Shown: positions 6,467-63,363 of the stretch, piece after piece
Position numbering within the stretch: the stretch's first letter is position 1
How the letters are laid out: each line of letters begins with the position of its first letter
From: a virus
Length of the DNA stretch: 64,000 nt
Direction: 5' to 3' (one strand)
Virus record (IMG/VR): IMGVR_UViG_3300036770_005052
Coordinates: 1 to 64,000 of that record
Made by a program: the position numbers and the translations under genes
Notes under the pieces: generated by a model
What the model was told of the DNA's origin: nothing
The model's database searches: none
The model's input: the letters and a program-made list of their open reading frames with translations, nothing else

Positions 6467-6540
6467 GCCTCAGTAACTCAGTGGACTAGAGTATCCGCCT
6501 TCTAAGCGGTTAGCCGTTGGTTCGAATCCAACCTGAGGCG
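6467..6540 (+). tRNA. tRNA-Arg(TCT)
   Basis: Cloverleaf; anticodon loop CT-TCT-AA; TTCGAAT T-loop. Confidence 0.93.
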
Positions 6541-6593
6541 CTTGACTTTTTGAGAAAAAAGTCTTATAAATAAAAACACTTAGGTCGAAAACA

Positions 6594-6695
6594 ATGTCTT
6601 ACCCAATGCCCACAAAACAGTTTAGTATTCTCGATTGCCGCTATTGGCATATTGAGGGTGCTCCCCTGTTTGCGGATATGGATAGACATATGTAA
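6594..6695 (+). CDS. 33-aa peptide with its own promoter and terminator
   Basis: MSYPMPTKQFSILDCRYWHIEGAPLFADMDRHM; TATAAATA at 6565; terminator downstream. Confidence 0.5.
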   Translation: MSYPMPTKQFSILDCRYWHIEGAPLFADMDRHM

Positions 6696-6716
6696 GATAT
6701 GTAATTCATAAAAGCA

Positions 6717-6755
6717 AAGAGGGGAGAGAAACCAAAAAGTTTCCTCCCCTTTTTT
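6717..6755 (+). terminator. Intrinsic terminator
   Basis: AGGGGAG..GAAAC/GTTTC-CTCCCCT stem followed by a T run. Confidence 0.7.
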
Positions 6756-6881
6756 GTTGCTTGTGACAGTTTCCTAAGTGTCCACCAATCTCCCCCCAGA
6801 GACCAAACGGTGGTATTCTAATCAAGTGGTCGAGAGAGACCACACCGAACCTAGACAACCGAATATTTATCCATATTATGT

Positions 6882-6953
6882 GGGACATTAACTCAGCGGT
6901 AGAGTATCCGGCTTTTAACCGGTTAGTCCTCGGTTCGAATCCGAGATGTCCCA
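6882..6953 (+). tRNA. tRNA-Lys(TTT)
   Basis: Cloverleaf; CT-TTT-AA loop. Confidence 0.92.
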
Positions 6954-6957
6954 TCGT

Positions 6958-7048
6958 GGGAGAGTGCCTACTGTCGGCAATACGTGTAGGAGCGGTCTGT
7001 AAAACCGTCACATAGGAACCATCGGGGGTTCGATTCCCTCCTCTCTCA
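6958..7048 (+). tRNA. tRNA-Tyr(GTA) with enlarged D-arm
   Basis: GGGAGAG/CTCTCTC acceptor; GCGGT-CTGTAAA-ACCGT arm; long variable region. Confidence 0.8.
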
Positions 7049-7094
7049 CTGCATGATCTGCCCAATGATACCATTGGTAGTGGATTGTGCTCTT

Positions 7095-7167
7095 GACCCT
7101 ATAGTGAAGTGGTCTATCACGCCTACCTGTCTAGTAGGAATCTGGGATTCGAATTCCCATAGGGTCG
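7095..7167 (+). tRNA. tRNA-Asp(GTC)
   Basis: Cloverleaf; CCTAC-CTGTCTA-GTAGG. Confidence 0.88.
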
Positions 7168-7168
7168 T

Positions 7169-7343
7169 TGGAGATCATCAGTACGAATCTCCACGCATTC
7201 TTCAGAGGTTGCCAGTTTGCAGAAGAATGTCGTAGTAATAACTGGAATTGGGGAGGGATTCCTAACCACCATCGGATGATGGCAGGATTCATAAGGCTAC
7301 GAAGCGTAATCCGTAAGTAACTTCGTGTGGGATACCCCTCTCA
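7169..7343 (+). ncRNA. Non-tRNA structured RNA(s) with predicted pseudoknots
   Basis: Hairpin 7169-7193; stem GCAUUCUUC/GAAGAAUGU with CCAGUU/AACUGG pairing; closed multibranch 7250-7343. Confidence 0.5.
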
Positions 7344-7346
7344 TCT

Positions 7347-7421
7347 GGTCCTATCGTCTAGTGGTGAGGACATCACTCTTTCACAGTGAAGACACGGGTT
7401 CAAATCCCGTTAGGACTACCA
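7347..7421 (+). tRNA. tRNA-Glu(TTC)
   Basis: Cloverleaf; encoded CCA. Confidence 0.93.
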
Positions 7422-7422
7422 T

Positions 7423-7494
7423 CCAGGAGTAAGTCAGCGGTAGACGGCACCGTTTGGGGCGGTGAAGACGTTGGTTCAAATCCAACCTTCTGGA
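7423..7494 (+). tRNA. tRNA-Pro(TGG)
   Basis: CACCG-TTTGGGG-CGGTG anticodon arm. Confidence 0.9.
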
Positions 7495-7497
7495 CTT

Positions 7498-7571
7498 GGG
7501 AACATAGCTCCAATTGGTAGAGCACATGATTGAAGATCATGGTGTTATCGGTTCAAATCCGATTGTTCCCT
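7498..7571 (+). tRNA. tRNA-Phe(GAA)
   Basis: CATGA-TTGAAGA-TCATG. Confidence 0.92.
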
Positions 7572-7586
7572 CTTGACCTTATGGTC

Positions 7587-7686
7587 ACGGAGATTCACTT
7601 CCTCCGTTATGAAACTTCGGTTGGTTAGTGATAGGTTTTTCAGTCCGAAAACTGAAACTGGTAGGTTGTTGATATCGACTCCTACC
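7587..7686 (+). ncRNA. Non-tRNA structured RNA, three hairpins with two possible pseudoknot pairings
   Basis: ACGGAG/CUCCGU, UUUCAGU/ACUGAAA and GGUAGG/CCUACC stems; UCACU/AGUGA and UUCGG/CCGAA cross-pairings. Confidence 0.45.
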
Positions 7687-7691
7687 TTGAT

Positions 7692-7763
7692 GGAATCGTA
7701 GCTCAGTGGTAGAGCACACCCCTGATAAGGGTGCGGTCACAAGTTCAAATCTTGTCGGTTCCA
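7692..7763 (+). tRNA. tRNA-Ile(GAT)
   Basis: CACCC-CTGATAA-GGGTG. Confidence 0.93.
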
Positions 7764-7766
7764 CTT

Positions 7767-7856
7767 GGGAGAGCACCTTGGTTGGTGGGTACGACGGTAT
7801 CAGAGACGGTTCGATTCCGTCCATTGGCAATGGTGGTTCGATTCCACCCTCTCCCA
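7767..7856 (+). ncRNA. tRNA-like RNA with two T-arm-like hairpins
   Basis: Perfect GGGAGAG/CTCTCCC+A acceptor stem; GACGG-TTCGATT-CCGTC and GGTGG-TTCGATT-CCACC. Confidence 0.65.
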
Positions 7857-7860
7857 ACTT

Positions 7861-7932
7861 GGCAGTGTAGTTCAGTGGCAGAACAAGAGATTCATACCCT
7901 CTATGTCGGTAGTTCAATTCTACCCACTGCCT
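7861..7932 (+). tRNA. tRNA-Met/Ile2(CAT)
   Basis: Cloverleaf; TT-CAT-AC loop. Confidence 0.85.
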
Positions 7933-7933
7933 T

Positions 7934-8005
7934 GTGTCGTTAGCCTAGTGGTCAAGGCATCTGTTTGTGAAACAGAGGAGATGAGTTCAATTCTCATACG
8001 ACACC
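7934..8005 (+). tRNA. tRNA-His(GTG)
   Basis: TCTGT-TTGTGAA-ACAGA; C discriminator. Confidence 0.9.
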
Positions 8006-8007
8006 CC

Positions 8008-8081
8008 GTTCGGGTGGCAGAGTGGTCGAATGCGGAAGTCTGCAAAACTTCTTATCGTGGGTTCGAATCCCACCCTGAACT
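8008..8081 (+). tRNA. tRNA-Cys(GCA)
   Basis: GAAGT-CTGCAAA-ACTTC; U discriminator. Confidence 0.92.
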
Positions 8082-8086
8082 CCTAA

Positions 8087-8158
8087 TCCAGAATCGACTA
8101 ATTGGCAGGTCAGCACCCTTTGAAGGTGTACGTCTAGGTTCGAATCCTAGTTCTGGAA
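8087..8158 (+). tRNA. tRNA-Gln(TTG)
   Basis: GCACC-CTTTGAA-GGTGT; U1-A72. Confidence 0.92.
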
Positions 8159-8161
8159 CTT

Positions 8162-8235
8162 GTCCGTGTAGCCCAATTGGAAGAGGCACCACCTTGAGGG
8201 GGTGGGTGTTGGAGGTTCGAGTCCTCTCACGGACA
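8162..8235 (+). tRNA. tRNA-Leu(GAG), short variable loop
   Basis: CCACC-TTGAGGG-GGTGG; 5-nt variable loop; A73. Confidence 0.85.
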
Positions 8236-8238
8236 TAT

Positions 8239-8312
8239 GCCCGATTGATGGAATTGGCATACATACTTGCCTTAGAAGCAAGGTTTTACAGGTTCGAATC
8301 CTGTATCGGGCA
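8239..8312 (+). tRNA. tRNA-Leu(TAG), short variable loop
   Basis: CTTGC-CTTAGAA-GCAAG; 5-nt variable loop; A73. Confidence 0.88.
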
Positions 8313-8316
8313 CCTT

Positions 8317-8388
8317 GTTGGGATGGTGTAATTGGTAGCACGGAAATCTCCAAAATTTCTAGTTAGGGTTCAAGTCCCTATCCCTTCG
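8317..8388 (+). tRNA. tRNA-Trp(CCA), two U-U mismatches in the acceptor stem
   Basis: GAAAT-CTCCAAA-ATTTC; acceptor GTTGGGA/TCCCTTC. Confidence 0.8.
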
Positions 8389-8391
8389 CCT

Positions 8392-8468
8392 GCCCTCTTA
8401 ACTCAGTGGACCAGAGTGCTTGGCTACGAACCAAGAAGTCGCAAGTTCGAATCTTGCAGAGGGTGCCA
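8392..8468 (+). tRNA. tRNA-Arg(ACG)
   Basis: Cloverleaf; encoded CCA. Confidence 0.93.
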
Positions 8469-8505
8469 TTTAAATCTAAATAGCAACGAGAGGTGTGATA
8501 GGAAA

Positions 8506-8976
8506 ATGGAATTAGTAGAACCACATTCAACTATACTAGTTCTGAATAGTTCTTACGAGCCACTACACTTCACTAATTGGAAACGTGCAATTGGTTTACT
8601 TTTTAAACAGAAAGCAAAACTTATCTCCAAGAGAATTATTCGTTTGGTAAATTATGTGAAACTTCCATTTTCCTATGGGAAATCCAATTACCCAACGAGA
8701 GCACTCATCTATAAACGGGATGATTATGAGTGTCAGTATTGTGGGTCTAAAAATGACCTTACAATTGACCATATAATTCCCCGCTCAAAAGGTGGTCAAG
8801 ATACTTGGGATAATTTAGTTGCTTGTTGCACATCTTGTAATCTTAAAAAAGGAAATAAACTTCTTAAAGATACTAATATGGTCTTAAAAAGTATTCCACA
8901 AGCACCAATTAGTAGAGTGATACTTGATATTCAGAAAACAAAAGTTTCTGAATGGAAGGACTATTTGTTTCAGTAG
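8506..8976 (+). CDS. HNH endonuclease (McrA-like)
   Basis: VLNSSYEPL, RDDYECQYCG, LTIDHIIPRSKGG..W.NLVACC..CN; the longer ORF-track start runs through tRNAs. Confidence 0.88.
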   Translation: MELVEPHSTILVLNSSYEPLHFTNWKRAIGLLFKQKAKLISKRIIRLVNYVKLPFSYGKSNYPTRALIYKRDDYECQYCGSKNDLTIDHIIPRSKGGQDTWDNLVACCTSCNLKKGNKLLKDTNMVLKSIPQAPISRVILDIQKTKVSEWKDYLFQ

Positions 8977-9070
8977 GGGGTTGACAAATTTTTGAAAATA
9001 CCCTAATATATAAAAGACAGAGGTTAAGTCCCTGATATGTCCTTGAGGCATACCACACTTAACCCTTCAT

Positions 9071-9145
9071 CGTGGGGAAGTGTAACGGTTGCACAGAAGT
9101 CTCATAAGCTTCAGGTAGGTGGTTCAACTCCACCCCCCGCCTCCA
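9071..9145 (+). tRNA. tRNA-Met(CAT), initiator-like 1:72 mismatch
   Basis: C1xC72; CT-CAT-AA loop; encoded CCA. Confidence 0.85.
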
Positions 9146-9149
9146 ATTT

Positions 9150-9222
9150 GGGGAATTAGCTCATTTGGTAGAGCACCGCTTTTGCACGGCGGGGGTGAGG
9201 AGTTCGAGTCTCCTATTTTCCA
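9150..9222 (+). tRNA. tRNA-Ala(TGC)
   Basis: G3-U70; TT-TGC-AC loop. Confidence 0.92.
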
Positions 9223-9273
9223 CTGGGGAAGTGATCCTGCGGATTCGTCCAAGAGCTCTCCTTCTCCTTATAT

Positions 9274-9346
9274 TCCACACGACCGAGCAAGCGAACGGGC
9301 CCGTCTGTTAAACGGAGATAGCTAGGGGCAGTACCTAGGTGTGGAG
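9274..9346 (+). tRNA. tRNA-Asn(GTT) with non-canonical D/T loops
   Basis: TCCACAC/GTGTGGA acceptor; CT-GTT-AA; T-arm CTAGG-GGCAGTA-CCTAG. Confidence 0.8.
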
Positions 9347-9394
9347 TTTCTAACCTTTAAAATATTATAAATAATAATAAAGTTGGAGGTTAGA

Positions 9395-9937
9395 GTGTCT
9401 AGTAAAGCAGTAGTTGAATTTCGTCAAAGAAGAAAAAGATGGGCAGTTGAAGCATTTGGTGGTAAGTGTGGTATTTGTGGATATAATAAATGTGTTGAAG
9501 CATTGGATTTTCATCATATTGATCCTACACAAAAAGATTTTACCTTAACAGCATCAGTAGCAAATCGACAAATATTTGTTGAAGAACTTAAAAAGTGTGT
9601 TTGTTTGTGCTCTAATTGCCATCGTGAAGTTCATTCTGGCGTTACACAAATTCCCGATAATATATTAAAATTTGATGAAAGTTTTTCTAATAAACCTGTA
9701 CCAGAAAAACCAAAACATCCTTGTAAAGAGTGTGGAAAACTAACAACAGTTAATCATCTATTTTGCTCAATAAAATGTTCTAATAAAAATAAAGAAGTTG
9801 CCAAGTGGCCAAATAATCAAGAACTACAAAAGTTAGTTGATGAATATGGTTATCGAGGAACTGGTAGAATGTTTGGAGTTAGTGATAATGCGGTTAGAAA
9901 AAGATTGCAGAAACGAGGACTATTGACATCTGTTTGA
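9395..9937 (+). CDS. HNH homing-endonuclease-like protein with Zn finger and C-terminal HTH
   Basis: GGKCGICGY..ALDFHH..CLCSNCHREVH; GTG start after GGAGG; late promoter at 9366. Confidence 0.82.
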   Translation: MSSKAVVEFRQRRKRWAVEAFGGKCGICGYNKCVEALDFHHIDPTQKDFTLTASVANRQIFVEELKKCVCLCSNCHREVHSGVTQIPDNILKFDESFSNKPVPEKPKHPCKECGKLTTVNHLFCSIKCSNKNKEVAKWPNNQELQKLVDEYGYRGTGRMFGVSDNAVRKRLQKRGLLTSV

Positions 9938-9960
9938 GAATATGATAATATATAGATATT

Positions 9961-10080
9961 GGAAGGTCTGGAAATGTCTGGGTCTTCCTTTCTAAATCCT
10001 AACCTTGTTAGGTCGGGGATTTGATCACCCCCGCCAGTTGCAGAAAGTGTCTTCTGCGGGTGTCGGGCACTCGATACCCA
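9961..10080 (+). ncRNA. Multi-hairpin RNA ending in a kissing-loop pair
   Basis: Five hairpins; loops AGUGUC and GGCACU are complementary; promoter TTGACA(9923)..GATAAT upstream. Confidence 0.6.
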
Positions 10081-10083
10081 TTT

Positions 10084-10155
10084 GCCCTTGTAGCTCAGTG
10101 GTAGAGCAACGGTTTTGTAAACCGTTGGTCGCTGGTTCAAATCCAGTCGGGGGCT
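10084..10155 (+). tRNA. tRNA-Thr(TGT)
   Basis: ACGGT-TTTGTAA-ACCGT. Confidence 0.93.
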
Positions 10156-10233
10156 TGACATAATACCCATTATGTCTTATACTTCATATGTCCGTGTGAA
10201 GTGAAGTGCTGGGAGAGTCAAATCTCCCATTTT

Positions 10234-10305
10234 GCGGAGTTAGTTCAGTGGTAGAACGCTATCCTTCCAAGTTAGATGTCGTCGGTTCGAATCCGATACT
10301 CCGCT
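10234..10305 (+). tRNA. tRNA-Gly(TCC)
   Basis: GCGGAGT/ACTCCGC; CT-TCC-AA. Confidence 0.92.
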
Positions 10306-10362
10306 TTCCCCAAAATCATGGGGATACTAAATAATACTCGTAGTTGTAAATCTTAATACAAT

Positions 10363-11247
10363 ATGACTTTTCAAAATATTATTACTGCTAGTGTAGTTGC
10401 TACGACTTCTTTGGTTGCGCCTGCGATGGCGCAAGTCACTAGCGTTAAGCAACTGAGTGATGTTCAACCTACTCAGTGGTCTTATCAAGCAATCACTAAT
10501 TTGGTAGAGCGTTACGGTTGTGTTGCTGGTTATCCTAATGGCACTTTCCGTCCAGGTCAACCTGCAACTCGTGCCGAACTTGCTACTCTGACTAATGCTT
10601 GTCTTGATCGCATTAGTGAGTATCAAAGTGCTGCTGATGCTGCTCTTGCTTCTGCTCTTCGTGCTGAATTTGCCAAAGAACTCGCTGTTACCAATACTCG
10701 CGTGTCCGCTCTCGAAGTTGCCACTGCTCAAAAAGCTCAAGGTGTTGGTAACTATGTTGGTGTTGGCGTTCTTCTCAATCAGCAAGGCACTGCTGGTAAC
10801 GGTTTCAGTGCTCAGCGTACCATCTCCGGTGCTACCGTTCAGGCACGTTATGCCGTGAAGAACTTCACCAATCTGAATGCTGTTTCGGTTCGTCCTTATG
10901 CTAGCTTCGTAGGCACTCCTGCTGGTCAGTTGGGTTCTGGTGGTGGTGCTCTGGTGTCTTATGACTGGAGCATCTCTCGTGCCAAGTCTGGTGCGAGCCG
11001 TGCTAACGTCTACACTGGTGTTGGTTATCAGATCCCCTTCGTAAACAACACTGCTGCTAACTTCCAGTCTGCTGTTGGCAATCGTGGTCAAGTTGTTCTT
11101 GCTCTTGGTGTCGAAGGTCGTATCACTAACTCTCTGGTTGGTTTTGCTGATCTCAAGTTCCCTACCACCAATGCTTCTAATAGCTATGGTGTTACTAACG
11201 GAACTTATTCACCCGTATTCACTACTGGTTTGGGCATTAAGTTCTGA
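10363..11247 (+). CDS. SLH-domain outer membrane protein (cyanobacterial porin-like N-terminus, short beta-barrel)
   Basis: Signal peptide; QVTSVKQLSDVQPTQWSYQA..LVERYGCVAGYP..TRAE; C-terminal Phe. Confidence 0.85.
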   Translation: MTFQNIITASVVATTSLVAPAMAQVTSVKQLSDVQPTQWSYQAITNLVERYGCVAGYPNGTFRPGQPATRAELATLTNACLDRISEYQSAADAALASALRAEFAKELAVTNTRVSALEVATAQKAQGVGNYVGVGVLLNQQGTAGNGFSAQRTISGATVQARYAVKNFTNLNAVSVRPYASFVGTPAGQLGSGGGALVSYDWSISRAKSGASRANVYTGVGYQIPFVNNTAANFQSAVGNRGQVVLALGVEGRITNSLVGFADLKFPTTNASNSYGVTNGTYSPVFTTGLGIKF

Positions 11248-11328
11248 TATTTTAATACGTAGTGTAAATTGGGGGGAGTTGACAACGACTCCCCTTTTTA
11301 GTATAATAGGTATTGAATCAGGAGGTTT

Positions 11329-11487
11329 ATGTCTCTCATTTCTCAAATGGACCGTGAAATGGTCATTGAAGCACTTGAGTATTATATTGATAAATTAAAA
11401 GAAGATAATTGCACTCAAGCATCTATTACGGTGTTTAATACTCTTCTTCGCTGGATTGAACTAGAGCATTTTAAAAATGAAAATTAA
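11329..11487 (+). CDS. Hypothetical protein (52 aa)
   Basis: AGGAGG RBS; MSLISQMDREMVIEALEYY... Confidence 0.7.
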   Translation: MSLISQMDREMVIEALEYYIDKLKEDNCTQASITVFNTLLRWIELEHFKNEN

Positions 11488-11641
11488 TCTCTGGTACTGT
11501 AAAGATATGAATCTTTGGCGTTGGACTCTGATTGATGATCATCGACCAATAGTAAAACAAGAGTCTGGACAGAGAGAAAATCTACGAGATGCCATGAATG
11601 ATGTGGCTAATACAGTAGAATATCTTATGGGTCAGTTTTGA
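11477..11641 (+). CDS. Hypothetical protein (54 aa)
   Basis: MKINLWYCKDMNLWRWTL...; overlaps the upstream stop. Confidence 0.65.
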   Translation: MKINLWYCKDMNLWRWTLIDDHRPIVKQESGQRENLRDAMNDVANTVEYLMGQF

Positions 11642-11649
11642 CTTTTTAT

Positions 11650-11722
11650 GCCCGATGACCCAGCTAGTGAAGGGACCTGCCTTACAAGCAGGCAGCGGTA
11701 GGGGCGGAACCTATATCGGGCA
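11650..11722 (+). tRNA. tRNA-Val(TAC) with non-canonical D/T loops
   Basis: GCCCGAT/ATCGGGC; CCTGC-CTTACAA-GCAGG; T-arm GTAGG-GGCGGAA-CCTAT. Confidence 0.82.
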
Positions 11723-11751
11723 CTTTTATAAATACCTAAAAAACTGGTATA

Positions 11752-12186
11752 ATGGAAAAGTTATATAAATTACTTTCTGATACTCAAGCAACTCTTTTTA
11801 TGTTGTTTCAGAAAACTTGGGTCTATCACTGGAATGTGGTGGGTTCGGAGTTTTATCAGTTTCATAAAGTCTTCGGTAAACAATACGAAGAAATGTTTGA
11901 AGAGATTGATCGGCTCACAGAGCACATGAGATACCTGAAAATTAAACCTGTTAGCACTCTCACAAGAATTACTGAAGTTTCTCACGTTCTCGAAGCAAAT
12001 AACAAGCTTGATGATGTGGGAATGGTAAAAGACTTGATTGCTGATAACGAAACTTTGGTTGGTCTTTTTAAACAAGTTGCCGAAGAAGCAGAATTGCAAA
12101 AATCAAGAGGCACTACAAATCTTGTTGATGATTTGAATGAATCACACGGAAAATTTATCTGGATGTTAAGATCTTTTACTGAATGA
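11752..12186 (+). CDS. dps: Dps family ferritin-like DNA protection protein
   Basis: HWNVVG..F..FH..F..QY......ID.L.E and H.K..WML motifs. Confidence 0.9.
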   Translation: MEKLYKLLSDTQATLFMLFQKTWVYHWNVVGSEFYQFHKVFGKQYEEMFEEIDRLTEHMRYLKIKPVSTLTRITEVSHVLEANNKLDDVGMVKDLIADNETLVGLFKQVAEEAELQKSRGTTNLVDDLNESHGKFIWMLRSFTE

Positions 12187-12192
12187 AATACG

Positions 12193-12450
12193 ATGGAAAA
12201 TTTAAGAATCAGATGTCGCTCCTGTGGAAAGGAGTTAGAAGGGCATCCAACGAAAACTGTGACTTGTGGTTGTCCAAATATGGCAACTATTCGTGGAGAT
12301 AAGATTTCGGCAGTTGACTTGGACAACATAGTTATGCTAAACTCTTATCATAGAAAATCAAAGTCTGGTGTTCTCACTAACGAAGACCTTGCTTTTCAGG
12401 AAGCAAGAAGGCAACGTAAAGTAAGAAGACTTGATTTTGAAGTCCGTTGA
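12193..12450 (+). CDS. Zinc-ribbon hypothetical protein
   Basis: CRSC...CGC motif. Confidence 0.7.
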   Translation: MENLRIRCRSCGKELEGHPTKTVTCGCPNMATIRGDKISAVDLDNIVMLNSYHRKSKSGVLTNEDLAFQEARRQRKVRRLDFEVR

Positions 12451-12460
12451 GGACTTTATT

Positions 12461-12547
12461 GGAGAGTCAAACCGATAGGTGACGGTAGCTGTCTTGAAAA
12501 CAGTCGAGGTGTTAAAGCCCTTAGGCGTTCGATTCGCCTACTCTCCG
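12461..12547 (+). tRNA. tRNA-Ser(TGA)
   Basis: GGAGAGT/ACTCTCC; CT-TGA-AA; long variable arm. Confidence 0.92.
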
Positions 12548-12660
12548 TTACAAATATTACAAAATTTTAGATTTTTTTAATCTATATTTGAGTATCAACA
12601 CAAACTTGACAAGTTGAAACTATCGATTAGTATAACTAGTAGTATTCAACTTAAAACCTT

Positions 12661-12813
12661 ATGGATCAGCACACCTATGAGAACTGGGTGAAGATCAAGG
12701 AGACATTCGAATCTTCTGGTAACACTAACAATATGTTCTATAAAAGAGCAGTTGAAATTGTAAAAACCAGAAAAGATCCTTTGGCAAAATTTCTTGGAGA
12801 TGAGAAGTGGTGA
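12661..12813 (+). CDS. Hypothetical protein (50 aa)
   Basis: MDQHTYENWVKIKETFESSGNTNNMFYKRA...; TTGACA/TATAAC promoter upstream. Confidence 0.7.
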   Translation: MDQHTYENWVKIKETFESSGNTNNMFYKRAVEIVKTRKDPLAKFLGDEKW

Positions 12814-13010
12814 AACCTCAAGATGAATTGGTAAGTCGTTATGAAGTTCAGGGGATGATTGATGCAGCAATACGACGACACAATCGTAATGCTTCTATCA
12901 TTAGTATGTGCATCGGTTGGGTGGTTCTTGCTTTATTTGCTGAGGGACTCCTCCGACTGGTAGGTGTTATTCCACCATTATTACCGTTTTTAAAATTCAC
13001 GTTAAATTAA
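12807..13010 (+). CDS. Small membrane protein
   Basis: IDAAIRRHNRNASIISM followed by a hydrophobic helix. Confidence 0.7.
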   Translation: MVKPQDELVSRYEVQGMIDAAIRRHNRNASIISMCIGWVVLALFAEGLLRLVGVIPPLLPFLKFTLN

Positions 13011-13182
13011 CTATGTTAGAAGAAGATTATAAAGAACTTTATGATCTTATACAAAAACTAAAAATGCAAGAATTATTTGAAGAACCATCTACTTACGAAG
13101 ACGAGGAAGATGATTAAAACTGTTATATCTTCAATTTTACTTTTTTCTTCAATTATATTGTTTATCTGTTGGGGATTAACTA

Positions 13183-13377
13183 ATGCTTACCCACACTAAG
13201 CAAAGATATAATTTTGCTATGACTTGCTTTGTGAGGTCTTATGGCAGAAGAGTTTTGAATGATGAAAGTATCAAACAATTTTGCAAAGAGTGGTCTGAGT
13301 GGGATATAAATGCTCCACTAGACGATAGTGTAGATCAATACTTTCATTATGAATATAAGAATTGGAGAGGAGTATGA
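13183..13377 (+). CDS. Hypothetical protein
   Basis: 64-aa ORF in a run of small coupled ORFs. Confidence 0.55.
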   Translation: MLTHTKQRYNFAMTCFVRSYGRRVLNDESIKQFCKEWSEWDINAPLDDSVDQYFHYEYKNWRGV

Positions 13378-13511
13378 TTTTTCATATAGTAGAACTACTT
13401 GCATCAAATCCAGTATGGATAGGACTATGTGGAGGTGGATTAATTATTCCACCTATCATAGGTATAATGATTATACATAATAATAAACAAAAATAATTTA
13501 ATTAAAAATTT

Positions 13512-13949
13512 ATGGCAACCGTTAATTATACTATTACTAACTCAGTAAAAGATAGCTGGACTGGATATTTTGAAGTAAGTAGCTTATCTAGTACTGTAAG
13601 CGATTATAATTCAATTAGTGCTATTGGAGCTGGTACTGGATTATTTTCTTTTACTCCAACTCAGTTTGAAATGTATCCTGATAATCCAGGTACTAATGTA
13701 GGTAGAACTTATGTTACTTGGAGAAGTATTGCCTTTCCTGGAGAACAGTTTCCATCTTCTGGCTATAGTTTTGATATTTGGTCTGAGGGATTATATACTG
13801 CAATTAATTCTGGTGCAACATGGAGTACATTGATTAGTACTGGAACTTATAGTCTTTCAAATAATAAATGGACAGTAGTTTATAATTATGATCCTCCGTA
13901 TCCATTATTTCATGGACAGAATGGTACAATTACTTTTACTGCTGGATAA
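13512..13949 (+). CDS. Hypothetical Ser/Thr/Tyr-rich beta protein
   Basis: 145-aa ORF with phage-like codon use. Confidence 0.6.
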   Translation: MATVNYTITNSVKDSWTGYFEVSSLSSTVSDYNSISAIGAGTGLFSFTPTQFEMYPDNPGTNVGRTYVTWRSIAFPGEQFPSSGYSFDIWSEGLYTAINSGATWSTLISTGTYSLSNNKWTVVYNYDPPYPLFHGQNGTITFTAG

Positions 13950-14001
13950 TGTAGATTGACAATTCACGTTTATGGGAGTATAATTACTTCCATAAACATT
14001 A

Positions 14002-14075
14002 CGGGGTGTAGCGCAGTTTGGTAGCGCATCCGCTTTGGGAGCGGGAGGTCGTAGGTTCGAATCCTATCACCCCGA
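14002..14075 (+). tRNA. tRNA-Pro(TGG), canonical host-like copy
   Basis: CGGGGTG/CACCCCG; TT-TGG-GA; own TTGACA/TATAAT promoter. Confidence 0.95.
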
Positions 14076-28794: not shown

Positions 28795-28892
28795 GCAATT
28801 GGACCTATTGACAGGATTTCCTGACAATGCTATGATAAATAGGTAAACAAATGTTAAGAAATCCTCATAATTCTTAACATTGTTCCTCTACC

Positions 28893-28960
28893 TAACCGAG
28901 ACCTATGGGGAGGTTAAACACAGTCTCTCATACCCACAATGGAGGGTGTTGTGGGAAATA
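28893..28960 (+). ncRNA. PhotoRC-II-like psbA leader RNA
   Basis: GAGAC/GTCTC stem, TCATA linker and CCCACAA/TTGTGGG stem directly upstream of psbA. Confidence 0.7.
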
Positions 28961-29007
28961 CTATACTATCCAGTTCCCCCTGGACTTTATTTACCCTTTA
29001 ACGAAAA

Positions 29008-30300
29008 ATGACTGCTACTATTGCTACACGCCGTTCTGGCGAAAACCTCTGGGAACAATTTTGCCAGTGGGTTACTTCAACGAACAACCGTCTTTATGTC
29101 GGTTGGTTCGGAACTCTGATGATTCCTACATTGCTTGCTGCTACTGTATGTTTCATCGTCGCCTTCATTGCAGCCCCACCAGTGGACATTGATGGCATTC
29201 GTGAACCTGTTGCTGGTTCACTCATGTACGGAAACAACATCATCTCTGGTGCCGTTGTTCCAAGTTCTAATGCGATTGGATTGCATTTTTACGCAATCTG
29301 GGAAGCAACAAGTCTTGATGAATGGCTTTATAATGGCGGACCTTTCCAACTGATTGTGTTCCACTTCCTCATTGGCATCTATTGCTATATGGGTCGTGAA
29401 TGGGAACTCTCATATCGTTTGGGTATGCGTCCTTGGATTATGGTTGCTTACAGTGCTCCTGTTGCTGCTGCATCTGCTGTATTCCTAGTATATCCTTTTG
29501 GACAAGGTTCATTCTCTGATGCGATGCCTCTTGGTATCTCTGGTACTTTCAACTATATGTTTGTGTTCCAGGCAGAGCACAATATCCTGATGCACCCATT
29601 CCATATGCTTGGAGTTGCTGGTGTCTTCGGTGGTTCTCTGTTCAGTGCTATGCACGGTTCTCTTGTTACTTCTTCACTGGTTCGTGAAACCACTGAAACT
29701 GAATCGCAGAACTACGGTTACAAGTTCGGTCAAGAAGAAGAGACTTATAACATCGTTGCTGCTCACGGTTATTTTGGTCGTCTAATCTTCCAATATGCAT
29801 CGTTCAACAACTCTCGTAGTCTTCACTTCTTCCTTGCTGCCTGGCCCGTTGTAGGCATCTGGTTTGCTGCTCTTGGTGTGAGCACCATGGCATTCAACCT
29901 GAATGGTTTCAACTTCAATCAGTCAATTCAAGATAGTCAAGGTCATGTTATTAACACTTGGGCGGACATCTTGAATCGTGCTGGACTCGGAATGGAAGTT
30001 ATGCATGAGCGTAGATTTGGGTATTGCGCTCTTTAAATCGGATGAATTGCTGGAAACCCCAAGTGGGCAATCAGCAGCCAAGTCTTAGATACATCTAAGA
30101 AAGGTTCAGAGACTACCTGAGGAATAAAGTTTCCTTAATAACAGGGTTAGCGTCCGACACCAGAAATGGTGATGATATAGTCCAATCCTGGTAGTAATAC
30201 CAGATTTCAAGAGGTTTATAAGAATGCCCACAATTTCCCTCTTGACCTTGCATCAGTTGAAGCAACTCCTGTTGCCTTGACTGCTCCAACCATCGGTTGA
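29008..30300 (+). CDS. psbA: Photosystem II D1 protein, join(29008..30012,30223..30300)
   Basis: Typical D1 sequence; ...VMHER continues as [11 protein letters not shown]...APTIG* after intron removal. Confidence 0.97.
30013..30222 (+). mobile_element. Group I self-splicing intron (210 nt, no internal ORF)
   Basis: 5' exon ends in U and the intron ends in G; IGS GCGCUC pairs GAGCGU and GGGUAUU pairs AAUGCCC (P10); core AAUCAGCAG, GUUCAGAGACUA, GAUAUAGUCC. Confidence 0.93.
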
Positions 30301-62760: not shown

Positions 62761-62813
62761 TGTAACATCTTATACATAAAAAGCTTGCTATATAGATTGA
62801 ATAGGGTTATAAT
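62761..62813 (+). promoter_or_regulatory. NtcA box and sigma70 promoter
   Basis: TGTA-N8-TACA at 62761-62776; TTGCTA(62785)-17-TATAAT(62808). Confidence 0.7.
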
Positions 62814-62823
62814 AATCCTCTAA

Positions 62824-63035
62824 CGTTCATCCCTTTGGGACGGAAGTAAGCCGACTCGGAACGGATCGTTCATCTATGGAAACACTCATTCTGACATGCT
62901 TACAAGCACACTTAATTGCTGGGAGAGTTCATCAACAGAACATTTCCAAACAGGTAAAGAATGATTTAATTTGGGAAATAAAACAGATCTCTCCAAAGGA
63001 GTGTAAAATAGACGCAAAAGCCGACTGAAGGAACG
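62824..63035 (+). ncRNA. Tandem glutamine riboswitch (glnA-motif) aptamers
   Basis: Aptamer 1 CGUUCA-UCCC/GGGA-CGGAAGUAAGCCGACUCG-GAACG (62824-62863); aptamer 2 CGUUCA-UCUAU/AUAGA-CGCAAAAGCCGACUGAAG-GAACG (62867-63035). Confidence 0.8.
62876..63028 (+). CDS. 50-aa ORF nested in the second aptamer
   Basis: METLILTCLQAHLIAGRVHQQNISKQVKNDLIWEIKQISPKECKIDAKAD*. Confidence 0.55.
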   Translation: METLILTCLQAHLIAGRVHQQNISKQVKNDLIWEIKQISPKECKIDAKAD

Positions 63036-63067
63036 CTCTTTAACCTAAACCATTAAGGAGAAACCTA

Positions 63068-63202
63068 ATGTCTAAAGTCGTATATCGCGGTGTCGAATAT
63101 GATACCGAAGTTCGTCGCCAGCAACAGCAGGCACAACAGCAACCCCAACAATACAACGAAACCTATCGTGGTGTTAAGTTTGTGAAGGAGGGGCAAAAAT
63201 GA
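63068..63202 (+). CDS. DUF4278-like small protein, Gln-rich
   Basis: Two YRGV motifs around QQQQAQQQPQQ; AAGGAG RBS. Confidence 0.82.
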   Translation: MSKVVYRGVEYDTEVRRQQQQAQQQPQQYNETYRGVKFVKEGQK

Positions 63203-63300
63203 ATACTTACTTCGTTCGATATTTAAAAAGAAAAGCAAAGAAGGAACAACTCCTTCATAATGCACAACTGAATATGGCAAAGCAACCACAAATTGCTTGA
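63199..63300 (+). CDS. 33-aa basic peptide
   Basis: ATGA overlap; MNTYFVRYLKRKAKKEQLLHNAQLNMAKQPQIA. Confidence 0.55.
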   Translation: MNTYFVRYLKRKAKKEQLLHNAQLNMAKQPQIA

Positions 63301-63303
63301 TTT

Positions 63304-63332
63304 GGGAGGGGACTTGATCCCCTCTTTTTTTT
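63304..63332 (+). terminator. Intrinsic terminator
   Basis: GAGGGGA-CTTGA-TCCCCTC + T run. Confidence 0.8.
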
Positions 63333-63363
63333 ATGCTAAAATGAATTGAAGTAACTATAAAGT

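What the first reader, a model, noticed from the sequence alone, without database searches (positions are those of the whole stretch)
62867..63035. A protein-coding ORF nested inside a glutamine riboswitch aptamer
Seen: aptamer 1 has a 3-nt P2 loop, while aptamer 2 has the same CGUUCA..CG..AGCCGAC..GAACG frame with about 128 nt in the P2 loop. The ATG (62876) starts in the 5' strand of P2 (UCUAU). The frame stays open for 50 codons through the 3' strand (AUAGA) and stops at UGA inside the conserved 3' segment. Inference: ligand-bound folding and translation of this ORF are mutually exclusive, so ribosome transit could reset or gate the switch, or glutamine could toggle between this peptide and the downstream DUF4278 protein. 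I know of no described riboswitch with this layout.
Basis: partly seen in the sequence, partly recalled or inferred. Interest (0 to 1): 0.78.

Follow-up and report, generated by a model that had tools for sequence, protein, structure and literature searches.

The report
Gene nested inside interlocked glutamine riboswitch
A lake-type cyanophage starts a small operon with a glutamine-sensing RNA made of two sensor cores folded one inside the other, and one of its stems closes around a real 50-codon gene, so the folded sensor and a ribosome reading that gene cannot share one RNA molecule.

Summary
The ORF at 62876-63028 starts in the 5' strand of a 5-bp helix (UCUAU/AUAGA). It runs through the 3' strand and stops at a UGA inside the conserved glutamine-riboswitch 3' segment.

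The ORF is a real gene:
- dN/dS is 0.12.
- Codon-position variability is 0.63/0.28/1.12.
- The frame is open in 106 of 107 loci, and both other frames are full of stops.
- The protein family has 288 representative clusters and includes free-standing relatives.

The two "aptamers" are not a simple tandem.
- Each half lacks part of the consensus: AGUA occurs only in half 1, and GAA plus the linchpin C only in half 2.
- Covariation in 106 doublets shows crossed linchpin pairs (0 unpaired, against 65% unpaired for the tandem reading).
- The same alignment shows one shared P3 helix formed between the halves.

So the RNA has an outer canonical glutamine-I core (62824...63036). Inside it sits a second, circularly permuted core, and the P2 stem of that inner core encloses the gene.

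The outer 3' strand abuts a hairpin that hides the ribosome-binding site of a DUF4278-like (IF17-like) gene.

Mutual exclusion of folding and ORF translation follows from the anatomy. The regulatory logic is inferred.

This scan has noted the same layout before on other phage DNA. I found no paper describing it.

The parts
62785..62813 (+). Promoter-like site: TTGCTA, 17-nt spacer, TATAAT. The predicted start is about 62820, just before the RNA element.
   Evidence: 10 of 12 matches. A TATAAT lies just upstream of the first CGUUCA in many relatives.
62824..62829 (+). a1: CGUUC(A), the 5' strand of the outer P1. It pairs with 63031-63035.
   Evidence: The sequence is invariant, so the partner is assigned from the linchpin and P3 covariation.
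62830..62840 (+). h1: outer P2 hairpin UCCC-UUU-GGGA.
   Evidence: Its sequence and length vary with compensation among relatives. Some relatives have a second nested ORF here.
62841..62848 (+). j1: CGGAAGUA, the outer J2/3. G62842 is the equivalent of the triple G22. G62843 is the linchpin G, which pairs with C63036. AGUA is the 5' E-loop strand.
   Evidence: Crystal-construct numbering from PMC5393176 and PMC6698751. Linchpin counts are GC 67, CG 38, GU 1 and 0 unpaired.
62849..62856 (+). p3_1: AGCCGACU, one strand of the shared P3 helix. It pairs antiparallel with 63019-63026.
   Evidence: End pair: UA 76, GC 14, AU 13. Other end: AU 96, GU 5, CG 2, GC 1. Middle: GC 80, GU 16, AU 6.
62857..62864 (+). 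C + b1 GGAACG + G. b1 is the 3' strand of the inner P1 and pairs with a2 at 62867-62871. G62864 is the inner linchpin partner of C63015.
   Evidence: inner linchpin GC 97, CG 2, UG 1, other 6. The C before b1 is present in 143 of 144.
62867..62872 (+). a2: CGUUC(A), the 5' strand of the inner P1. The hairpin b1-GAU-a2 has only 2 nt between the linchpin partner and a2.
   Evidence: The linker is 3-6 nt in most relatives and 21 nt in three. In L029 it holds an insertion of about 590 nt.
62873..62877 (+). 5' strand of h2 (inner P2), UCUAU. It contains the A and U of the ORF start codon.
62876..63028 (+). Nested gene of 50 codons. The product is a two-helix protein with two invariant cysteines (C8, C43). 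The last codons, D-A-K-A-D-stop, are written by the riboswitch 3' segment.
63008..63012 (+). 3' strand of h2, AUAGA.
   Evidence: 98.9% paired; 4 of 5 pairs covary across 130-200 nt.
63013..63018 (+). j2: CGCAAA, the inner J2/3. G63014 is the G22 equivalent. C63015 is the inner linchpin. There is no AGUA.
   Evidence: CGCAAA is also kept in 29 of 38 ORF-less doublets, so the RNA itself constrains it.
63019..63026 (+). p3_2: AGCCGACU, the second strand of the shared P3. Its last U is the first base of the ORF stop codon.
63027..63036 (+). GAAG (3' E-loop strand) + b2 GAACG (outer P1 3' strand) + linchpin C63036.
63036..63066 (+). Expression platform. CUCUUUAA (63036-63043) pairs with UUAAGGAG (63053-63060), which is the Shine-Dalgarno sequence. 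AGG 63029-63031 can pair with CCU 63064-63066.
   Evidence: hairpin -5.3 kcal/mol. The same hairpin is predicted in all freshwater-type relatives.
63068..63202 (+). DUF4278-like 44-aa gene with two YRG motifs (IF17-like).
   Evidence: PF14105, E 0.001, 19.8 bits, below the cut-off of 25.3. (phrog_5049, 3e-13). (Y6 R7 G8 and Y33 R34 G35 are invariant).
63199..63300 (+). 33-aa ORF overlapping the stop of the previous gene (ATGA). It is the last ORF of the unit.
   Evidence: It is annotated in S-SRM01.
63304..63334 (+). Intrinsic terminator-like hairpin followed by a T run.

Best explanation
The leader of a small cyanophage operon (about 62820-63335) is one composite glutamine riboswitch built from two interlocked sensor cores.

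The outer core is a canonical glutamine-I three-way junction:
- P1 is 62824-62828 with 63031-63035.
- P2 is the hairpin 62830-62840.
- The E-loop is AGUA (62845-62848) with GAA (63027-63029).
- The linchpin is G62843:C63036.

Its P3 is not a hairpin. It is an 8-bp duplex between 62849-62856 and 63019-63026. At the far end of this duplex sits a second, circularly permuted core:
- Inner P1 is the hairpin 62859-62863 with 62867-62871.
- Its linking strand is CGC at 63013-63015.
- Its linchpin is C63015:G62864, which is the glutamine-II orientation.

The inner P2 (62873-62877 with 63008-63012) closes around a real 50-codon gene.

Shown here: the gene is coding and conserved, and the crossed pairs, the shared P3 and the stem around the gene are kept by compensatory changes.

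Follows from the anatomy:
- The start codon and its 5' flank are buried in the folded form.
- The last 7 codons and the stop lie on the inner P2 3' strand, the inner binding-site strand and the shared P3.
- A translating ribosome must therefore unfold both cores, and the folded sensor must block initiation on the nested gene.

Inferred by analogy with the Synechocystis gifB leader:
- Glutamine binding fixes the outer P1 and linchpin.
- That takes C63036 and AGG 63029-63031 away from the hairpin that hides the Shine-Dalgarno sequence of the DUF4278-like gene, and so turns that gene on.
- The likely net logic is reciprocal: the nested protein is made when the sensor is unfolded (low glutamine), and the IF17-like protein is made when it is folded.
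- A ribosome terminating at 63026-63028 may also open the hairpin.
For: Coding:
- dN/dS is 0.12, against 0.62 and 2.9 in the other frames, which carry stops in 59/59 and 58/59 sequences.
- Entropy per codon position is 0.63/0.28/1.12.
- The frame is open in 106 of 107 loci, and length changes are in-frame.
- There are 169 clusters at 90% identity and 288 representatives at 50% identity when the RNA-dictated tail is left out of the profile.
- Free-standing homologues exist.
- The AF2 model is a helical hairpin with pLDDT 84.

Interlock:
- The AGUA and GAA halves lie in different 'aptamers'.
- Outer linchpin: GC 67, CG 38, GU 1, none unpaired. Inner linchpin: 94% paired. P3 pairs show AU/GC/CG/UA exchanges.
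- The tandem reading gives 34.9% paired linchpins and no compensatory change in the local P3 hairpins.
- Exchanges occur on several backgrounds.
- A short-P3 variant has perfect AGUCG:CGACU.
- Nested is -10.4 and tandem -6.8 kcal/mol.
- Each half scores only 20-36 bits on RF01739.

Stem around the gene: 98.9% paired, and 4 of 5 pairs covary.

Platform: an SD hairpin begins at the linchpin C. This matches the model for gifB in PMC6212724.

One promoter and one terminator bracket the unit.
Against: - No binding, probing, toeprint or ribosome-profiling data exist for this RNA. Ligand binding by either core and the direction of control are inferred.
- P1 strands are identical in both halves, so they cannot tell the two foldings apart. 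Both may form at different times.
- Two of the eight P3 positions are usually C.A and A.C mismatches.
- The inner linchpin is C.A in the S-SRM01 type (5 of 144).
- My search patterns fixed AAGTA, GGAACG, CGTTCA and GAAGGAACG, so the invariance of those letters in my sample is not evidence.
- Sequences are related, so shuffle controls overstate significance.
- The nested gene has no clear Shine-Dalgarno sequence.
- A ribosome terminating next to the SD hairpin could switch on the downstream gene at low glutamine. That would blur a simple toggle.
Confidence: 0.72

Rival explanations
1. Simple tandem. Two self-contained glutamine-I aptamers sit in a row. The second has the ORF in its own P2 loop, and each binds glutamine independently (pseudo-cooperative).
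For: - P1 strands are identical, so a1:b1 and a2:b2 can pair.
- Rfam calls the first half alone at 36 bits.
- ORF-less second halves score 33.5-35.4 bits.
- The review PMC9481103 lists glutamine doublets as tandem pseudo-cooperative systems.
- a1:b1 is transcribed first and may form transiently.
Against: - Within-half linchpins are paired in only 34.9% of 106 sequences. In this window they are G.G and C.C.
- The local P3 would be a 2-bp hairpin whose closing pair is broken in 30 sequences without compensation.
- Cross-half pairs are kept by compensatory change.
- Neither half has both E-loop strands.
- The linker is only 2-3 nt, which leaves no room for a first expression platform.
Confidence: 0.08
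2. Passenger gene. The RNA architecture is as in the best explanation, but the ORF is only a small gene that settled in a tolerant hairpin loop of a compact phage genome. Its overlap with the sensor has no selected regulatory role.
For: - The protein family has free-standing members with their own Shine-Dalgarno sequences.
- About 44% of representatives have tails not dictated by this RNA.
- Other loops of the same RNA accept other inserts: a second ORF in h1 and an insert of about 590 nt in the b1-a2 loop.
- 36 of 77 doublets lack the ORF.
- One subgroup reads the 3' segment in another frame.
Against: - The association is old and wide: members with 20-30% identity all start 9-11 nt after a2, and 103 of 106 stop at the same UGA.
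- Stems around the gene are kept paired but are shorter and poorer in G-C than in ORF-less forms (5.7 bp against 6.9 bp), as expected if a ribosome must open them.
- The physical overlap forces interference whether or not it was selected.
Confidence: 0.2
3. Single sensor with a decorated P3. Only the outer core binds glutamine. The inner junction is a structural cap or a folding decoy that merely resembles a binding site because it arose by duplication.
For: - The inner core lacks the E-loop (CAAA and a single C instead of AGUA and GAA).
- Its linchpin is mismatched in the S-SRM01 type.
- No binding data exist.
Against: - All pocket-forming letters named for the solved structures are present: C1:G59, G2:C58 with the G of CGN, and the long-range pair (PMC6698751).
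- CGCAAA is conserved in ORF-less forms too.
- The inner linchpin covaries (CG 2, UG 1 beside GC 97).
- Glutamine-II also binds without an E-loop.
Confidence: 0.25
4. The insert is not translated. It is conserved as RNA only.
For: There is no clear Shine-Dalgarno sequence before the ATG. DSL-LC03 does not annotate the ORF.
Against: - dN/dS is 0.12, with third-position variability at invariant residues.
- Indels are in-frame.
- The insert folds no better than shuffles, z = -0.08.
- Free-standing protein homologues exist.
Confidence: 0.02

Closest known systems
Glutamine-I riboswitch (glnA RNA, Rfam RF01739), e.g. the Synechocystis gifB (IF17) leader (PMC6212724; structure summarised in PMC6698751 and PMC5393176)
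   Same: - CGUUC/GAACG P1, a variable P2 hairpin, CGGAAGUA...GAAGGAACGC with an E-loop, and a long-range G:C linchpin.
- Sits before a DUF4278-type gene.
- The linchpin C adjoins a sequence that pairs with the ribosome-binding site.
   Different: - P3 is a duplex between two distant segments, not a hairpin.
- P3 carries a second permuted core.
- One stem encloses a protein gene.
- Rfam sees only a chimeric half.
Glutamine-II riboswitch (Downstream-peptide motif, RF01704; PMC6698751)
   Same: The inner core has the CGC linking strand and the GGAACG-G partner, which is the C:G linchpin orientation. It has no E-loop. Both precede DUF4278-like peptides.
   Different: - There is no H-type pseudoknot or P2 of the glutamine-II kind.
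- The inner P1 is a closed hairpin in a three-way junction.
- The Rfam score here is 17.6 bits against a gathering score of 33.
Tandem riboswitches as catalogued in PMC9481103: glutamine doublets are listed as pseudo-cooperative, and glycine is the dual-aptamer, single-platform case
   Same: Two sensor cores for one ligand lie before one gene. As in glycine riboswitches, the two domains depend on each other and share one expression platform.
   Different: The cores here are not side by side. They are nested and share a helix, with strands exchanged between the halves. I did not find this described for glutamine doublets.
Leader ORFs inside sensing leaders, e.g. mgtL in the Salmonella mgtA Mg2+-sensing leader (PMC6460261); and homing-endonuclease ORFs in loops of group I introns (own knowledge)
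   Same: An ORF lies within a structured regulatory or catalytic RNA, so translation and RNA folding interact. Peripheral loops tolerate whole ORFs.
   Different: - mgtL is a short regulatory peptide whose codons matter. Here a conserved 48-65-aa protein family with free-standing relatives is enclosed by a stem of the aptamer itself.
- The tail of the protein is written by ligand-pocket nucleotides.

Membership tests
Glutamine-I riboswitch (RF01739) | Match to the Rfam covariance model at or above the gathering score | tested here: met
   62822-62867 scores 36.0 bits against 35. This hit joins the outer 5' half to the inner 3' strand. The second half is not hit because of the 130-nt loop. ORF-less relatives give 33.5-35.4 bits for that half.
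Glutamine-I riboswitch (RF01739) | Three-way junction with P1 CGUUC/GAACG, a P2 hairpin and a P3 helix | tested here: met
   This is met only in the nested reading. P1 is 62824-28 with 63031-35, P2 is 62830-40, and P3 is 62849-56 with 63019-26. Compensatory changes occur at three P3 pairs.
Glutamine-I riboswitch (RF01739) | E-loop (AGUA opposite GAA) between J2/3 and J3/1 | tested here: met
   AGUA is at 62845-48 and GAA at 63027-29. They lie in different 'aptamers', so this is met for the outer core only (motif as in PMC5393176).
Glutamine-I riboswitch (RF01739) | Long-range linchpin pair (G23:C60) | tested here: met
   G62843:C63036. Across 106 doublets the counts are GC 67, CG 38, GU 1 and none unpaired. 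The within-half alternative is 34.9% paired.
Glutamine-I riboswitch (RF01739) | Selective binding of L-glutamine and control of the downstream gene | not testable with these tools
   This needs in-line probing or ITC, and reporters.
Glutamine-II riboswitch (RF01704) | Model match and H-type pseudoknot with P2 | tested here: not met
   17.6 bits against 33. The inner core shares only the CGC...GGAACGG pocket letters.
Simple tandem (pseudo-cooperative) riboswitch pair | Two self-contained aptamers, each with its own expression platform | tested here: not met
   The linker is 2-3 nt, the covarying pairs cross between halves, and each half lacks consensus parts.
DUF4278 / IF17-like proteins (PF14105) | Pfam match above the curated cut-off | tested here: inconclusive
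   19.8 bits against 25.3, E 0.001. phrog_5049 gives 3e-13. Two YRG motifs are invariant in 29 homologues.
PHROG 504 (unknown function), for the nested protein | Profile match | tested here: inconclusive
   E 0.00097, 19.8 bits, residues 6-48. There is no Pfam family. BFVD fold matches are uncharacterised cyanophage proteins.

The most novel reading that the evidence does not exclude
One mRNA leader couples a two-site glutamine sensor to a ribosome-operated reset. When glutamine is low the sensor is open and the nested two-cysteine protein is made. Each ribosome that reads it unfolds both cores and ends beside the hidden ribosome-binding site. When glutamine is high the interlocked fold locks, shuts off the nested gene and exposes the IF17-like gene. 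This would be a reciprocal, translation-gated toggle between two small nitrogen-related phage proteins.
Probability: 0.3. Interest if true: 0.9.

Novelty: new variant of a known kind. Interest (0 to 1): 0.78.

Why it matters
Riboswitches are taught as non-coding sensors placed ahead of genes. In this leader a conserved protein gene lies inside the sensor. The two "tandem" glutamine aptamers turn out to be one interlocked, strand-exchanged double core that standard family scans read as a single weak hit.

If the nested fold is confirmed, several consequences would follow:
- The catalogued glutamine doublets (157 in PMC9481103) may need re-reading as dual-site, single-platform devices like glycine riboswitches.
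- It gives a natural case where ribosome traffic and ligand-dependent RNA folding compete on the same nucleotides.
- It points to an unstudied two-cysteine small-protein family that cyanophages express together with an IF17-like factor, which probably acts on host nitrogen control during infection.

The ORF-less 99-nt form in S-CREM1 is a ready construct for structure work.

Tried and rejected
- Structured P2 extension. Folding 62865-63040 alone gives z = -0.08 against shuffles, so the insert is not a structured extension.
- Key papers. Ames & Breaker 2011 (PMC3127080) and Ren et al. 2015 (PMC4690532) are not held. I cannot exclude that the first describes the doublet architecture. The structure facts come second-hand from PMC6698751 and PMC5393176.
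- Other literature searches found no description of a nested ORF or an interlocked doublet.
- Genome-contig scan with the doublet pattern. It returned 120 rows that were almost all chance matches in unrelated bacteria. Only L313 is a real doublet. This says nothing about cellular genomes.
- Complex prediction of the nested protein with the DUF4278-like protein gave no verdict (score 0.00). It is evidence neither for nor against binding.
- Function of the nested protein. A Foldseek search of the PDB found nothing below E 7, and the protein atlas gave no usable hit, so function remains unknown.
- RNA libraries. Contigs from four freshwater or estuary metatranscriptomes lie on the conserved parts. 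One 183-nt contig (87% alike) spans 62855-63037, and others are ORF-less relatives. They are contigs of relatives, with no strand, ends or levels, so they are not used as evidence of transcription or of a start site.
- Rfam tRNA-Sec hit at 12461-12546. ARAGORN calls it tRNA-Ser(UGA).

Full report
**What is there**

The window is the first 64 kb of a 119.6-kb IMG/VR virus record, estimated 52% complete. Its closest isolates are freshwater Kyanoviridae: S-SRM01, DSL-LC02 and DSL-LC03.

The finding lies in one short transcription unit:
- a promoter-like site, TTGCTA-17-TATAAT, at 62785-62813;
- a structured leader;
- a 44-aa DUF4278-like gene (63068-63202);
- an overlapping 33-aa ORF;
- an intrinsic terminator at 63304.

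**Check of the observation**

- CGUUCA at 62867, UCUAU at 62873-62877 and ATG at 62876;
- AUAGA at 63008-63012, then CGCAAA, AGCCGACU and GAAGGAACG;
- the ORF stop UGA at 63026-63028.

The ORF has 50 codons. Rfam calls only 62822-62867, at 36.0 bits against a gathering score of 35.

**The ORF is a gene**

- The same ORF is annotated in S-SRM01 and DSL-LC02.
- It has 169 protein clusters at 90% identity.
- In 107 loci with the element, the frame is open in 106. Length variants are in-frame.
- In 59 distinct nucleotide versions, variability per codon position is 0.63/0.28/1.12. Invariant residues such as C8, Q10, E35 and Q38 have variable third positions.
- Pairwise dN/dS is 0.12. The same alignment read in the other two frames gives 0.62 and 2.9, with stops in nearly every sequence.
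- The insert has no excess RNA structure, z = -0.08.
- In a sample drawn without regard to the insert, 41 of 77 unique doublets carry such an ORF of 48-65 codons.
- Across all 106 insert-bearing doublets from both searches, identity to the window's protein falls to about 20%. The ATG starts 9-11 nt after the second CGUUCA in 101 of them, and 103 end at the same UGA.
- Two cysteines are invariant. AlphaFold gives a two-helix hairpin with pLDDT 84. No solved structure matches it, and the only fold matches are uncharacterised cyanophage proteins.
- A profile built without the RNA-dictated tail finds 288 representative clusters. About 56% of the listed small ones have tails written by the riboswitch 3' segment. 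These are DAKAD, a DAND form with a shorter P3, or another frame through the same letters.
- The two other-tailed members that I fetched are free-standing genes with their own ribosome-binding sites.

So this is an autonomous protein family that is very often, but not always, housed in this RNA.

**The RNA is not a simple tandem**

Read as two aptamers, each half is defective.
- Half 1 has CGGAAGUA. It has only a C where GAAG should be, and a G opposite its linchpin G.
- Half 2 has GAAGGAACGC. Its junction is CGCAAA, with no AGUA, and a C lies opposite its linchpin C (roles of G22, G23:C60 and the E-loop from PMC6698751 and PMC5393176).

Crosswise, everything fits.

Among 144 unique doublets, the third letter of the first junction and the letter after the second GGAACG are G/C in 88, C/G in 55 and G/U in 1. 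The first junction against the letter after the first GGAACG is mismatched in about 60%.

On a 106-sequence alignment:
- the outer linchpin is GC 67, CG 38, GU 1, with none unpaired;
- the inner linchpin is 94% paired and includes CG and UG;
- the two copies of AGCCGACU pair antiparallel, with UA/GC/AU at one end, AU/GU/CG/GC at the other, and GC/GU/AU inside.

The tandem structure on the same alignment has 34.9% paired linchpins. Its local P3 hairpins are broken in 30 sequences without compensation.

Further support:
- The exchanges recur on different backgrounds.
- A variant with a 5-nt P3 has perfect AGUCG:CGACU.
- Nearest-neighbour energy favours the nested fold, -10.4 against -6.8 kcal/mol.
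- ORF-less relatives (S-CREM1, P-TIM68) have the same crossed design. Their halves score only 20-35 bits on RF01739.

Caveats:
- The P1 strands are identical, so they are uninformative.
- My patterns fixed several motifs.
- The sequences are related.
- Two P3 positions are usually C.A and A.C.

**Resulting anatomy**

The outer core is a canonical glutamine-I junction. Its P3 is a long-range duplex.

At the distal end of that duplex sits a second three-way junction, which is a circular permutation of the aptamer:
- Its P1 is the closed hairpin GGAACG-GAU-CGUUC.
- Its linking strand is CGC, with the glutamine-II C:G linchpin orientation.
- Its P2 is the 5-bp stem around the gene.

That stem is paired in 98.9% of cells, and four of its five pairs covary across 130-200 nt. 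It is shorter and poorer in G-C than in ORF-less forms.

**How it probably works**

Directly after the outer linchpin C63036 comes CUCUUUAA. This pairs with the Shine-Dalgarno stretch UUAAGGAG of the DUF4278-like gene. AGG of the outer 3' strand can pair with CCU before the start codon.

This is the arrangement proposed for the glutamine-activated gifB leader (PMC6212724). I therefore infer an ON switch for the IF17-like gene.

- The nested start codon and its upstream 15 nt are inside the inner P1 and P2.
- The last seven codons cover the inner P2 3' strand, the inner pocket strand and the shared P3.
- The stop codon straddles the boundary between P3 and the E-loop.

Folding and translation of the nested gene therefore exclude each other. 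A terminating ribosome would also cover the outer P1 strand and the start of the anti-SD.

The simplest logic is reciprocal expression. Whether termination also opens the downstream site, and whether both cores bind glutamine, is open.

**Comparison and novelty**

The parts belong to the known glutamine-I and glutamine-II families. The review of tandem riboswitches lists glutamine doublets as pseudo-cooperative tandems (PMC9481103).

I found no paper that describes the interlock or the nested gene, but Ames & Breaker 2011 could not be read.

The closest working analogues are the mgtL ORF in the mgtA leader (PMC6460261) and ORFs in group I intron loops (own knowledge).

Earlier notes of this scan on other phage genomes reached the same nested reading. 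I had written it down before looking and tested it here independently.

Noticed in passing
L010, L012, L014, L018, L021, L042, L058, L062, L076, L082, L095, L106, L007 (relatives): In a subgroup of relatives the outer P2 hairpin (UCCUAU...AUAGGA) also encloses a gene. It is about 66-68 codons, with a signal-peptide-like N-terminus and two cysteines. Those leaders therefore hold two nested genes. The window itself has only a short hairpin there.
   Followed up: partly
L029:1500-2470 (relative): The 3-nt loop between the first GGAACG and the second CGUUCA is replaced by an insertion of about 590 nt that carries a larger ORF. So this loop also tolerates a whole gene.
   Followed up: no
L347 (metagenome contig): A short-P3 variant of the interlocked doublet. 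The P3 strands are AGUCG and CGACU (5 perfect pairs), UAAAGGAACG replaces UGAAGGAACG, and the nested protein ends in DAND with a UAA stop. 32 of the 147 listed small representatives have this tail.
   Followed up: partly
L348, L350 (marine metagenome contigs): Free-standing homologues of the nested protein, with their own Shine-Dalgarno sequences and no riboswitch motifs nearby. The protein family is therefore not confined to the riboswitch.
   Followed up: partly
window 63199-63300: A 33-aa ORF overlaps the stop of the DUF4278-like gene by ATGA. Its end (..AQLNMAKQ..) resembles the C-terminal part of the single longer downstream protein of S-CREM1 (..AQLAMAMK). It may be a split or fused form of one gene.
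   Followed up: no
window 6467-14075: An array of 21 tRNA genes. The Rfam tRNA-Sec hit at 12461-12546 (47.1 bits against 47) is called tRNA-Ser(UGA) by ARAGORN, a long-arm tRNA rather than a selenocysteine tRNA.
   Followed up: yes
window 28875-28969 and 29963-30204: A PhotoRC-II RNA (77 bits) and a group I intron (89 bits) about 1 kb downstream of it, as expected around a cyanophage photosystem gene.
   Followed up: no
L109:1057-1242 (P-RSM6): A manA RNA (188 bits) lies about 200 nt downstream of the glutamine-riboswitch operon in P-RSM6.
   Followed up: no
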